Made by a program: the position numbers and the translations under genes
Shown: positions 32,222 through 33,408 of the stretch, one piece after another
Position numbering within the stretch: position 1 is the first letter of the stretch
Layout: every line of letters starts with the position of its first letter
The notes under the pieces: generated by a model
The model's input: the letters and a program-made list of their open reading frames with translations, nothing else
Database searches by the model: none
What the model was told of the DNA's origin: nothing
Source of the DNA: Chloroflexota bacterium
GTDB taxonomy: Bacteria; Chloroflexota; Anaerolineae; Anaerolineales; UBA4823
Direction: 5' to 3'
Assembly: GCA_020346705.1 (NCBI GenBank)
Contig: CP070785.1
Location: 1,498,788-1,549,620 of the forward strand
DNA: 50,833 nt

Positions 32222-32263
32222 TTGATTCTTATCAAAGAACGGTTATAATTCAGTCGCTGAATT
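32222..32263 (+). promoter_or_regulatory. Promoter (TTGATT-16-TATAAT) with an overlapping palindromic operator AATTCAG-tcg-CTGAATT, upstream of gmd
   Basis: The -35 element is at 32222-32227, the -10 at 32244-49 and the inverted repeat at 32247-32263. A near-identical copy lies at 33355-33396. Confidence 0.6.
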
Positions 32264-32282
32264 TTAGATTGGGAGGCTTTTG

Positions 32283-33251
32283 ATGCCGACTGCAATAATC
32301 ACCGGTATTACCGGGCAAGATGGATCCTACCTGGCTGAGTTTTTATTGGCCAAAGGCTATGAGGTGATAGGAATGGTTCGCCGGTCGAGTACGGTGACCT
32401 TTCAACGAATCAAACAGATCCAGGACGACATCACAATTATTCAAGGTGATTTACACGATCAATCATCGTTAGTGGATGTCATTGAAAGGTATCGTCCTCA
32501 AGAAGTTTACAATTTGGCTGCCCAATCATTTGTCCCAACCTCTTGGAACCAACCTGTGCTCACTGGAGAAGTGACTGCCCTGGGTGTAACCCGTCTCTTG
32601 GAAGCGATCCGTCTGATCAATCCTGAGACAAGGTTTTATCAGGCCTCTTCAAGTGAAATGTTTGGCAAGGTGCGTGAAGTACCCCAGAGCGAATCGACAC
32701 CCTTCTATCCACGCAGCCCATATGGGGTGGCGAAAGTATATGCCCATTGGATCACAGTAAACTATCGCGAATCCTACGATTTGTTCGCTGTATCAGGACT
32801 GTTATTCAATCATGGAAGCCCACGGCGTGGATTAGAGTTCGTTGAGCGGAAAATTTGTCACGGGGTGGCCCGGATCAAACTCGGATTAACCGACGAGCTA
32901 CGTCTTGGAAATCTGGATTCCCGCCGGGATTGGGGATTTGCAGGTGATTATGTAGAGGCGATGTGGTTGATGCTGCAGAGGGATGCTGCCGAGGATTATG
33001 TCATCGGTACAGGAGTAACCCACTCTGTACGAGAATTATGTGAACTCGCCTTCAGTCATGTTGGATTAGATTACAAGGATTATGTTGTCCAAGATCCACA
33101 GTTTTATCGCCCGGCGGAAGTTGATATATTGGTTGCAGATCCCAGCAAGGCTATTAAAGATTTGAACTGGGAACCAAAAATTGGCTTCGATGGGTTAGTT
33201 CAAATGATGGTTGATGAAGATCTCAAGCGCCTGGCCCTCGAGATTGATTGA
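32283..33251 (+). CDS. gmd: GDP-mannose 4,6-dehydratase
   Basis: It has [40 protein letters not shown] and [11 protein letters not shown] 32283 has GGGAGG 6 nt upstream. Confidence 0.95.
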
Positions 33252-33354
33252 TCTGGATTTTCGATCGAAAGTCGATAGGGTTATTATTCAGCAATTCTAG
33301 AGAAAAGTAATTAATCTGGTGAATTATATTAACAAGAATGCAGGCCAGATGCCC

Positions 33355-33396
33355 TTGACCTAATCCGGTCTGGAGTTATAATTCAGCCACTGAATT
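33355..33396 (+). promoter_or_regulatory. Promoter (TTGACC-16-TATAAT) with an overlapping palindromic operator AATTCAG-cca-CTGAATT, upstream of the wHTH regulator
   Basis: The -35 element is at 33355-33360, the -10 at 33377-82 and the inverted repeat at 33380-33396. The block GTTATAATTCAGyCrCTGAATTTTrGA is shared with the gmd site. Confidence 0.6.
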
Positions 33397-33408
33397 TTGG
33401 AAATTTTT

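What the first reader, a model, noticed from the sequence alone, without database searches (positions are those of the whole stretch)
32222..33398. Duplicated promoter carrying a palindromic operator (AATTCAG-N3-CTGAATT) in front of gmd and of the embedded wHTH regulator
Two sites 1.13 kb apart share an almost identical block of about 30 nt.
- Site 1 (32241-32270): GGTTATAATTCAGTCGCTGAATTTTAGATT.
- Site 2 (33374-33402): AGTTATAATTCAGCCACTGAATTTTGGAA.

Each has a good -35 element exactly 16 nt upstream of the TATAAT: TTGATT at 32222 and TTGACC at 33355.

Each also has a perfect 7+7 inverted repeat, AATTCAG-N3-CTGAATT. The repeat overlaps the last three bases of the -10 hexamer and the predicted transcription start, which is the classic position for a repressor.

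The motif GTTATAATTCAG occurs nowhere else in the window. One copy precedes gmd. The other precedes the winged-helix regulator, whose stop codon overlaps the start of the SDR-fcl genes.

This looks like an autoregulated switch controlling the GDP-fucose branch, and possibly the downstream exporter genes.
Basis: seen in the sequence. Interest (0 to 1): 0.6.

Follow-up and report, generated by a model that had tools for sequence, protein, structure and literature searches.

The report
Conserved self-repressor operator of glycan genes
Two promoters in a cell-surface sugar-polymer gene cluster of an uncultured Anaerolineales bacterium carry the same palindrome over their start sites; it is kept almost letter for letter before the same two genes across the order, so it is very probably the binding site through which the small DNA-binding protein next door shuts off its own operon and the first GDP-fucose gene, an ordinary kind of switch not yet described in this group.

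Summary
AATTCAG-N3-CTGAATT lies at 32247-32263 and 33380-33396. Each copy overlaps a TATAAT box 16 nt after a good -35, in front of gmd and of a 170-aa winged-helix regulator. These are the only two sites in the 3.27-Mb genome: a weight-matrix scan gives 31.3 and 30.5 bits, next best 18.4.

Comparative genomics supports the reading. In 80 Anaerolineales loci chosen only by regulator homology (55-86% identity), 73 carry TATAATTCAR-N3-YTGAATT exactly upstream of the regulator and 4 with one mismatch. In 17 of 61 related genomes a second exact copy sits directly before gmd, even where gmd lies 6-17 kb away. The regulator always heads the operon reg-(SDR)-fcl-wzm-wzt. Motif and regulator co-occur (Fisher p = 4.6e-7). 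In a sample of 251 Chloroflexota genomes the regulator was found only in this order.

The arm-closing positions show no pairing covariation, so the palindrome is a protein site, not a hairpin. It spans about -9 to +8 of near-consensus promoters, which favours repression.

The regulator has a MarR-like winged helix, a long helix and a small C-terminal domain with no Pfam or PDB match.

Binding, repression and ligand are untested. The mechanism is conventional. I found no paper on it, though other windows of this scan have noted it.

The parts
32222..32227 (+). -35 hexamer TTGATT of the gmd promoter
   Evidence: A -35 at the same 16-nt spacing is present at most orthologous gmd sites.
32244..32249 (+). 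-10 hexamer TATAAT of the gmd promoter
   Evidence: It is invariant in all 17 exact orthologous gmd sites, although those were found with a pattern that includes it.
32247..32263 (.). Operator 1, core palindrome AATTCAG-TCG-CTGAATT. The conserved block extends over 32242-32268. The predicted transcription start is near 32256 (G), so the site spans about -9 to +8.
   Evidence: 30.5 bits. The orthologous site lies directly upstream of gmd in 17 genomes. The +1 position is inferred from the -10 spacing only.
32283..33251 (+). gmd, GDP-mannose 4,6-dehydratase. A GGGAGG ribosome-binding sequence lies at 32271-32276.
   Evidence: PF16363 at 437 bits; TIGR01472 at 431 bits, above the 415 cutoff.
33355..33360 (+). 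-35 hexamer TTGACC of the regulator-operon promoter
   Evidence: The consensus ccTTGACc is conserved at a 16-nt spacing in 74 orthologous sites, at about 1 bit per position, while the spacer is unconserved at about 0.1 bit.
33377..33382 (+). -10 hexamer TATAAT of the regulator-operon promoter
33380..33396 (.). Operator 2, core palindrome AATTCAG-CCA-CTGAATT. The conserved block extends over 33375-33401. The predicted transcription start is near 33389 (A), giving a 5' UTR of about 20 nt.
   Evidence: 31.3 bits. Of 80 loci chosen by regulator homology, 73 are exact and 4 have one mismatch.
33409..33921 (+). 170-aa regulator. It has a winged helix-turn-helix (residues about 7-66), a long helix (68-105) and a small alpha/beta C-terminal domain (110-153) with invariant or near-invariant G115, G117, D118, D121, C123 and C127.
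   Evidence: HTH_24 at 45 bits and MarR at 29.3 bits. TIGR04176 MarR_EPS at 68.6 bits, below the 88 cutoff. AlphaFold2 mean pLDDT 88.9. Foldseek matches the wHTH only. Conservation.
33921..38185 (+). Genes co-transcribed with the regulator: SDR (33921-34943), an fcl-like GDP-fucose synthase (34950-35951), wzm (36003-36854) and wzt (36917-38185). The same-strand array continues with short gaps to about 50489.
   Evidence: The order reg-(SDR)-fcl-wzm-wzt was found in 78 of 80 loci; the other two have reg-wzm-wzt. Intergenic gaps are -4 to 98 nt. The operon extent is inferred.

Best explanation
The 170-aa winged-helix protein encoded at 33409-33921 most likely binds as a homodimer to the two-fold symmetric site (T)ATAATTCA-RYNRY-TGAATT(TT).

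The site is fused to the -10 box of two near-consensus sigma-70-type promoters and spans about -9 to +8 of each. Bound protein would block RNA polymerase and so repress two units:
(a) its own operon, regulator-SDR-fcl-wzm-wzt and probably the rest of the downstream glycan array;
(b) gmd, the committed step of the GDP-6-deoxyhexose branch.

An unknown signal, sensed by the long helix plus the small C-terminal alpha/beta domain, would release the protein. That would switch precursor synthesis and export on together.

Shown:
- the sites, their uniqueness in the genome and their position on the promoters;
- their order-wide conservation and their co-occurrence with the regulator;
- the regulator's predicted fold.

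Inferred:
- that this protein is the binder;
- dimeric binding;
- repression rather than activation;
- the transcription starts;
- the existence and nature of a ligand.
For: 1. Specificity. There are only two sites in 3.27 Mb, both pointing the same way and placed 20-27 nt upstream of start codons.

2. An unbiased footprint at the regulator gene.
- All 30 loci from 30 relatives chosen by protein homology carry the block.
- In a second set of 80 species, 73 are exact and 4 have one mismatch. One more is cut by the contig end but keeps the right arm. In the last 2 the regulator follows gmd directly and has no promoter of its own.
- Within the genus the 157-290-nt gmd-regulator spacer is unalignable except for the -35 and the -10/operator block.

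3. The second site tracks gmd.
- 17 exact sites lie directly before gmd, including cases where gmd is 6-17 kb from the regulator and one case with a paralogous long-form gmd.
- 5 more gmd orthologues have the site with 1-2 mismatches.

4. Co-occurrence.
- The exact motif is in 38 of 45 genomes with the regulator and 2 of 16 without it (Fisher p = 4.6e-7). One of those 2 has a contig break next to the site; the other assembly is 77% complete. About 0.0035 sites are expected per genome.
- The reversed-pattern control found 0 in all 61 genomes.
- In the phylum sample the regulator was found only in this order: 23 of 251 genomes hit, all in the order.

5. A protein site, not a hairpin.
- Symmetry continues as R-Y-N-R-Y through the spacer.
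- The arm-closing positions do not covary: G/C 26, A/C 16, G/T 16, A/T 14.
- The half-site centres are 10 bp apart.

6. The DNA-contacting parts of the protein are as invariant as the half-site. The recognition helix AVGTVNWH-KR and the basic wing residues K53, R56, R59 and K61 are invariant in 80 sequences.

7. Repressor geometry. The promoters are near consensus (TTGACC/TATAAT and TTGATT/TATAAT) and the operator is centred on the predicted +1.

8. A paralogous regulator clade has its own palindrome of the same type, again fused to its -10.
Against: - There is no experimental evidence of any kind: no binding data, no mapped transcription start and no expression data.
- Ascertainment: the gmd sites were first found by a pattern search. 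The homology-based check shows that many gmd orthologues below about 74% identity lack the site, so gmd control is common but not universal.
- The protein lacks the N-terminal dimerisation helix of canonical MarR proteins, and only a monomer was modelled, so dimer formation is assumed.
- The closest functional analogue inside a polysaccharide locus, WggR/ExpG, is an activator (PMC3233446).
- The genome is scored 73% complete, so further sites could exist in missing sequence.
Confidence: 0.75

Rival explanations
1. The same protein binds the same sites but acts as an activator or a dual regulator, as WggR/ExpG does in the Sinorhizobium galactoglucan cluster. It might do so by remodelling the promoter or by displacing another repressor.
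For: WggR is a MarR-type regulator encoded inside an exopolysaccharide cluster. It binds conserved palindromes in several cluster promoters, including its own, and activates them (PMC3233446). The 16-nt spacer here is 1 nt shorter than the optimum.
Against: The site covers -9 to +8 of promoters whose hexamers are already 10/12 and 11/12 consensus. Activators normally bind upstream of or beside the -35, and activator-dependent promoters usually have poor hexamers.
Confidence: 0.1
2. The palindrome is the site of a different DNA-binding protein, for example a global regulator of envelope genes. Its link with the neighbouring wHTH gene would then be only positional.
For: No binding data exist. 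Some genomes hold a paralogous regulator whose own operator shares the AATTCA half-site, so cross-binding by a relative is conceivable.
Against: - There are only 1-3 sites per genome, and one is almost always at the regulator's own promoter.
- The motif is essentially absent from genomes that lack the regulator.
- Both motif and regulator were found only in this order.
- Invariant recognition-helix residues parallel the invariant half-site.
Confidence: 0.08
3. The conserved block acts as nucleic-acid structure rather than as a protein site. It could be an RNA hairpin in the 5' leader, a cruciform, or a pair of directly repeated recombination sites flanking gmd.
For: It is a perfect 7-bp inverted repeat with a 3-nt loop, and the two copies are direct repeats 1.13 kb apart.
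Against: - The arm-closing positions vary independently: 32 of 74 sites have A/C or G/T there.
- With TATAAT as the -10, transcription would start inside the palindrome, so the left arm is not in the RNA.
- Rfam found nothing at E <= 1.
- The central trinucleotides differ between the two copies (TCG and CCA). That argues against crossover between the copies by a tyrosine recombinase, which from my own knowledge needs matching crossover regions. None of the cluster genes I scanned (27992-39777) is a recombinase.
- In other genera the two copies lie 6-17 kb apart, each still on a promoter.
Confidence: 0.03

Closest known systems
MarR-family autorepressors with palindromic operators over their own promoters (MarR/marO, OhrR, HucR, MepR, HcaR, FabT). 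The operator behaviour of these proteins is recalled from my own knowledge.
   Same: - It has a winged helix-turn-helix of MarR type: Pfam MarR at 29.3 bits, above the 24.6 cutoff. Foldseek matches HcaR, FabT, MexR and MepR at rmsd 2-3 A over 80-86 residues.
- Its operator is an AT-rich inverted repeat overlapping the -10 and +1.
- It is the first gene of the operon it controls, and its regulon is small and local.
   Different: - It lacks the roughly 35-residue N-terminal helix that forms half of the MarR dimer interface. FabT residues 44-107 align to query residues 9-70.
- It adds a 38-residue helix and a roughly 50-residue alpha/beta domain with no Pfam or PDB match.
- The whole-chain TM-score is at most 0.45.
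WggR (ExpG) of Sinorhizobium meliloti (PMC3233446)
   Same: It is a MarR-type regulator encoded inside a polysaccharide biosynthesis cluster. It binds one conserved palindrome present in several promoters of that cluster, including the promoter region of its own gene.
   Different: WggR activates, and it works together with PhoB and MucR. Here the site lies on the -10/+1 of strong promoters, which points to repression. I did not test for sequence relatedness beyond the wHTH.
NCBIfam TIGR04176, MarR family EPS-associated transcriptional regulator
   Same: It is the best-scoring curated family (E = 4e-19 over residues 10-98), and its members also lie in exopolysaccharide loci.
   Different: The score of 68.6 bits is below the family cutoff of 88. 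That family's model is only 105 positions long and has no C-terminal domain. I found no paper describing an operator for it.
Rex-type redox repressors (wHTH plus a Rossmann domain). The architecture is recalled from my own knowledge.
   Same: The layout is an N-terminal winged helix followed by a beta-alpha-beta unit with a Gly-rich loop (G115-x-G117-D-x-A-D).
   Different: The C-terminal domain has only about 50 residues. It has no significant sequence or fold match to Rex or to any Rossmann protein (best Foldseek E = 0.14; no Pfam hit). This is a resemblance, not membership.

Membership tests
MarR family (PF01047) | Winged helix-turn-helix DNA-binding domain of MarR type | tested here: met
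   Pfam MarR at 29.3 bits (cutoff 24.6) and HTH_24 at 45 bits. Foldseek matches HcaR, FabT, MexR, PcaV and MepR with probability 1.0 and rmsd 2-3 A over 80-86 columns.
MarR family (PF01047) | Dimerisation domain built from an N-terminal helix (alpha-1) and C-terminal helices (alpha-5 and alpha-6) | tested here: not met
   The wHTH begins at residue 7. MarR and FabT residues of about 40-107 align to query residues 9-70, so alpha-1 is absent. After the wing come one 38-residue helix and an alpha/beta domain. Whole-chain TMq is at most 0.45.
MarR family (PF01047) | Homodimer binds a (pseudo)palindromic operator overlapping the promoter of its own gene or operon | tested here: inconclusive
   A 17-21-bp palindrome over the -10/+1 of its own promoter is conserved in about 77 of 80 species and co-occurs with the gene. 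Binding and oligomeric state cannot be tested with these tools.
MarR family (PF01047) | DNA binding relieved by a small ligand or by oxidation | not testable with these tools
   The only leads are the invariant C123-x3-C127 and the G-x-G-D-x-x-D motif in the C-terminal domain.
TIGR04176 MarR_EPS | Score above the curated cutoff (88 bits) over the 105-position model | tested here: not met
   68.6 bits, model positions 6-98.
TIGR04176 MarR_EPS | Encoded within an exopolysaccharide or surface-glycan biosynthesis locus | tested here: met
   It lies between gmd and SDR-fcl-wzm-wzt in a 27-kb same-strand glycan array. It is directly followed by glycan-pathway or export genes in all 80 related loci: reg-(SDR)-fcl-wzm-wzt in 78 and reg-wzm-wzt in 2.
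Sigma-70-type promoter | -35 TTGACA-like and -10 TATAAT-like hexamers 16-18 nt apart, upstream of a gene | tested here: met
   10/12 and 11/12 matches with a 16-nt spacer. The -35 is conserved at fixed spacing while the spacer sequence is not. The actual transcription starts were not mapped.
Rex-like wHTH-Rossmann repressors | C-terminal Rossmann fold that binds NAD(H) | tested here: not met
   The C-terminal domain model (pLDDT 80.8) has no PDB match better than E = 0.14. There is no Pfam hit in 80 orthologues.

The most novel reading that the evidence does not exclude
The regulator may found a separate family, seen only in the Anaerolineales in the phylum sample. Its small C-terminal beta-alpha-beta domain (G-x-G-D-x-A-D loop, invariant C-x3-C) would be a new miniature sensor for a nucleotide-sugar intermediate of the pathway it controls, such as GDP-mannose, GDP-4-keto-6-deoxymannose or GDP-fucose, or for redox state. 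That would give direct metabolite feedback that couples precursor synthesis (gmd, fcl) to ABC export of a surface glycan in a major but genetically intractable environmental lineage.
Probability: 0.2. Interest if true: 0.6.

Novelty: new variant of a known kind. Interest (0 to 1): 0.4.

Why it matters
Anaerolineales are abundant in sediments, anaerobic digesters and activated sludge, where their surface polymers affect floc and granule formation. Almost nothing is known about gene regulation in the group, and to my knowledge no genetic system for it exists.

This is a fully specified, testable regulatory circuit. It names one protein, one 21-bp operator consensus and two target promoters, and all are conserved across the order. 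It can be checked with recombinant protein and E. coli reporters alone.

It also gives a well-supported promoter model for the lineage (ccTTGACc-N16-TATAAT), a likely operon structure for a conserved glycan locus, and a small uncharacterised sensor domain whose ligand could show what controls glycan production.

The mechanism itself, a repressor on its own -10, is textbook, so the surprise to a specialist is modest.

Tried and rejected
1. RNA element or hairpin. Rfam found nothing at E <= 1. The closing positions do not covary. The left arm lies upstream of the predicted start.

2. Recent segmental duplication. The pairwise alignment shows identity only at functional positions.

3. A third, degenerate site (GTTATTATTCAGCAATTC, 33280-33297) and an isolated half-site (TGAATTATA, 33320-33328). 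Neither is conserved, even in the closest relative, so both are taken as chance.

4. Recombination sites flanking gmd. The central trinucleotides differ, no recombinase was seen among the scanned cluster genes, and the distance between copies varies in other genera.

5. A larger regulon. Weight-matrix and mismatch scans of the genome found no further credible site.

6. Identity of the C-terminal domain.
- The PDB sequence search gave only weak wHTH hits.
- Foldseek on the full model and on the isolated domain gave nothing for the domain.
- Pfam on 80 orthologous domains gave nothing.
- Longer relatives of 190-240 aa share profile positions 5-136 but carry only HTH_24/MarR annotations. Hints to PglD_N (E = 0.009) and ELFV_dehydrog (E = 0.002) are insignificant.

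7. Transcription-start evidence from public RNA runs.

8. Literature. Four searches found no paper on this regulator, motif or locus regulation.
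Full report
**1. The observation**

Reading 31900-34100 confirms every string and coordinate in the finding.
- The gmd promoter is TTGATT (32222-32227), a 16-nt spacer, then TATAAT (32244-32249).
- The regulator promoter is TTGACC (33355-33360), a 16-nt spacer, then TATAAT (33377-33382).
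- In a consensus scan of 27-42 kb these are the two best plus-strand candidates, at 10/12 and 11/12 matches. The overall number of promoter-like hits in that region is no higher than in shuffles, so the scan alone proves nothing.
- The palindrome AATTCAG-N3-CTGAATT lies at 32247-32263 and 33380-33396 and overlaps the last three bases of each -10.

The match is not chance.
- The window has two exact matches, against none in 100 shuffles.
- The whole 3.27-Mb genome has the same two exact matches, no one-mismatch site and 31 two-mismatch sites.
- GTTATAATTCAG occurs only twice in the genome.
- A weight matrix built from orthologous sites scores these two at 31.3 and 30.5 bits. The next best position in the genome scores 18.4.

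The two promoters share only TTGA of the -35 and the block GTTATAATTCAG.C.CTGAATTTT.GA. Their spacers and flanks are unrelated. This is therefore not a recent duplication.

**2. The genes**

- 32283-33251 is gmd (TIGR01472 at 431 bits, above the cutoff of 415). A GGGAGG ribosome-binding sequence lies 6 nt upstream.
- 33409-33921 encodes a 170-aa protein with an N-terminal HTH_24/MarR winged helix. Its best curated family is TIGR04176, the "MarR family EPS-associated" regulators, but at 68.6 bits it falls below the cutoff of 88.
- The regulator's TAA shares a base with the ATG of an SDR gene (33921-34943).
- Next come an fcl-like GDP-fucose synthase (NF047922 at 295 bits, below the cutoff of 500), wzm and wzt.
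- The same-strand array then continues with gaps of -4 to 98 nt to about 50489.
- Names attached to homologues place the organism in the Anaerolineales, phylum Chloroflexota.

**3. Phylogenetic footprint at the regulator gene**

The regulator is present in 45 of 61 related genomes, usually as a single copy.

Loci were chosen by protein homology alone.
- All 30 loci from that search carry cccTTGACC-N16-GTTATAATTCAR-N3-YTGAATTTTRG just upstream of the start codon.
- An independent set of 80 species from the genome collection (55-86% protein identity, all labelled Anaerolineales, Anaerolineae or Chloroflexota) gave the following:
  - 73 exact matches to TATAATTCAR-N3-YTGAATT;
  - 4 with one mismatch;
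  - 1 cut by the contig end but keeping the right arm;
  - 2 in which the regulator follows gmd directly and has no promoter of its own.

The information profile of 74 sites shows a typical footprint.
- Flanks are unconserved, at about 0.05 bit.
- The -35 consensus ccTTGACc carries about 1 bit per position.
- The 16-nt spacer is unconserved, at about 0.1 bit.
- Then comes a nearly invariant block, gGTTATAATTCA-R-Y-N-R-Y-TGAATTTT-R-R-A.

Within the genus, the gmd-regulator spacer varies from 157 to about 290 nt. It cannot be aligned except at the -35 and the -10/operator block.

More distant families keep variants of the site, for example ...CTGAATATTG, GTTTATCATTCAGCCGCTGAATTTTG and GGTAATATTCAGCCTCTGAATAT.

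**4. The second site tracks gmd**

The pattern TATAATTCARNNNYTGAATT occurs 1-3 times per genome in 40 of 61 relatives. The reversed-pattern control found none in any genome, and about 0.0035 sites per genome are expected by chance.

One site is at the regulator gene. The second lies directly before a gmd start codon in 17 genomes.
- This includes genomes where gmd is 6-17 kb upstream of the regulator and heads a row of glycosyltransferase and membrane-protein genes (G053, G021, G029, G036, G058, G010).
- In G058 the gmd is the paralogous long form, at 54% identity.

A homology-first check of 20 further gmd orthologues gave a graded picture.
- Five carry the site with 1-2 mismatches (G040, G044, G031, G035, G015).
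- Three keep only TATAATT(C).
- The more distant orthologues, and most genomes without the regulator, have none.

Control of gmd is therefore widespread but not universal. Occasional extra sites precede a family-2 glycosyltransferase (G014) and, in G010, lie 142 nt upstream of an ORF that looks like a membrane protein.

**5. Co-occurrence and distribution**

- The exact motif is present in 38 of 45 genomes with the regulator and in 2 of 16 without it (Fisher p = 4.6e-7). In one of those two the contig ends just past the site; the other assembly is 77% complete.
- In a sample of 251 genomes spread over the phylum, the regulator profile hit 23, all in the same order. None of the roughly 228 genomes outside the order was hit.
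- The regulator is always the first gene of its operon. Of the 80 loci, 78 have reg-(SDR)-fcl-wzm-wzt (the SDR is missing in 26) and 2 have reg-wzm-wzt.

**6. A protein site, not a structure**

- The symmetry continues through the "spacer" as R-Y-N-R-Y. It also continues outwards to about 10 positions per arm. The one exception is the T of TATAAT, which the -10 requires.
- The two positions that would close a hairpin vary independently: G/C 26, A/C 16, G/T 16, A/T 14.
- The half-site centres are one helical turn apart.
- Rfam finds nothing.
- With TATAAT as the -10, the predicted +1 is the conserved purine 7 nt downstream, at window 32256 (G) and 33389 (A). The core palindrome then covers about -9 to +8, and the leaders are about 27 and 20 nt long. 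These start sites are inferred, not mapped.

**7. The protein**

The AlphaFold2 model built on the 80-sequence alignment is confident (mean pLDDT 88.9). It shows:
- a winged helix: helices 7-19, 25-32 and 36-48, and a wing at 52-66;
- one long helix, 68-105;
- a small alpha/beta unit: strand 110-114, helix 117-129, and strands 142-146 and 149-153.

Foldseek against the PDB matches only the winged helix. The hits are MarR-family proteins (HcaR, FabT, MexR, PcaV, MepR) at rmsd 2-3 A over 80-86 residues, and the whole-chain TM-score is at most 0.45.

Sequence alignment to FabT pairs its residues 44-107 with query residues 9-70. The N-terminal dimerisation helix of canonical MarR proteins is therefore missing.

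The C-terminal domain remains unidentified.
- Modelled alone it reaches pLDDT 80.8.
- It has no PDB match better than E = 0.14.
- It has no Pfam hit in 80 orthologues.

Conservation fits the DNA evidence. The recognition helix (A35-V-G-T-V-N-W-H42, K44, R45) and the basic wing residues (K53, R56, R59, K61) are invariant, as are G107, C127 and E129. G115, G117, D118, D121 and C123 are at least 90% conserved.

A profile search of 1.84 billion representative proteins found 62 at E <= 1e-30 and 3967 at E <= 1e-3. Among the hits around E = 1e-25 to 1e-30 is a group of 190-240-aa proteins that share profile positions 5-136 but carry only wHTH annotations.

Some genomes hold a paralogue with the recognition helix GIAVGSVNWY. 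Its own promoter carries GAGAATTCA-N5-TGAATnCTC fused to a GAGAAT -10, which is the same design.

**8. Mechanism**

The best-supported model is a local autorepressor. A dimer of the 170-aa protein would occupy the palindrome on the -10/+1 of two intrinsically strong promoters. It would hold down both gmd and its own operon (SDR, fcl and the ABC exporter), and an unknown signal would release it.

My estimates are:
- about 0.85 that this protein binds these sites;
- about 0.75 for the full repressor model.

The rivals are activation in the manner of WggR/ExpG (PMC3233446), a different binding protein, and a nucleic-acid structure or recombination site. Each is set out in its own section with its evidence.

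**9. Comparison and novelty**

The system works like a MarR-type autorepressor, but it fails one defining MarR feature, the alpha-1 dimerisation helix. It also falls below the TIGR04176 cutoff and adds an uncharacterised C-terminal domain. I therefore file it as a new variant of a known kind.

Four literature searches found nothing on this regulator or motif.

Other windows of this scan have reported the same promoter-operator composite in other Anaerolineales genomes. I read those notes only after my own analysis. They agree with it, but they are not independent evidence.

**10. Limits**

- There are no binding, transcription-start or expression data.
- Only a monomer could be modelled.
- The genome is scored 73% complete.

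Noticed in passing
L208-L212 (G102, G233, G284, G126, G197): A paralogous regulator clade (recognition helix GIAVGSVNWY, E about 1e-36 to 1e-40 against the profile) carries its own palindrome, GAGAATTCA-N5-TGAATnCTC. It is fused to a GAGAAT -10, about 17 nt after TTGACA. It shares the AATTCA half-site with the main operator, so cross-talk between the paralogues is possible.
   Followed up: partly
L083 (G015), L084 (G011), L078 (G049): Some regulator promoters carry an extra overlapping or tandem half-site downstream of the main operator. An example is TATAATTCAGTTGCTGAATTTCATGCACTGAATAT, where the second TTCA-N5-TGAA is offset by 14 nt. This hints at binding by two dimers.
   Followed up: no
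window 33706-33879 (regulator residues 100-157): The C-terminal alpha/beta domain carries a conserved G-x-G-D-x-A-D loop (each residue at least 90% conserved) and a C123-x3-C127 pair on one helix face (C127 invariant, C123 at least 90% conserved). It has no Pfam or PDB match. It may be a nucleotide, redox or metal sensor.
   Followed up: partly
window 33921-34943: The SDR gene coupled to the regulator's stop codon is an accessory gene. It is absent from 26 of the 80 related loci: in 24 the regulator is followed directly by fcl, and in 2 by wzm.
   Followed up: no
L145, L176, L082 (G057), L188 and L191 (G233, G284): In a few genomes the regulator has no promoter or operator of its own and follows the preceding gene closely. 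In three cases that gene is gmd, which in G057 carries the site. The circuit can therefore collapse into a single gmd-regulator operon.
   Followed up: partly
window 33280-33297 and 33320-33328: A degenerate operator-like string (GTTATTATTCAGCAATTC) and an isolated half-site (TGAATTATA) lie in the gmd-regulator spacer. Neither is conserved in the closest relatives, so both are probably chance.
   Followed up: yes
G000 and relatives: The Anaerolineales carry two gmd clades. A 322-aa form (at least 68% identical to the window's gmd) is usually tied to this locus and its operator. A form of about 360 aa (54-59% identical) lies elsewhere. In G058 the long form sits behind the operator instead.
   Followed up: no
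window 33252-33354: The scan found no plus-strand intrinsic terminator between the gmd stop codon and the regulator promoter. Read-through from the gmd promoter into the regulator operon is therefore possible.
   Followed up: no
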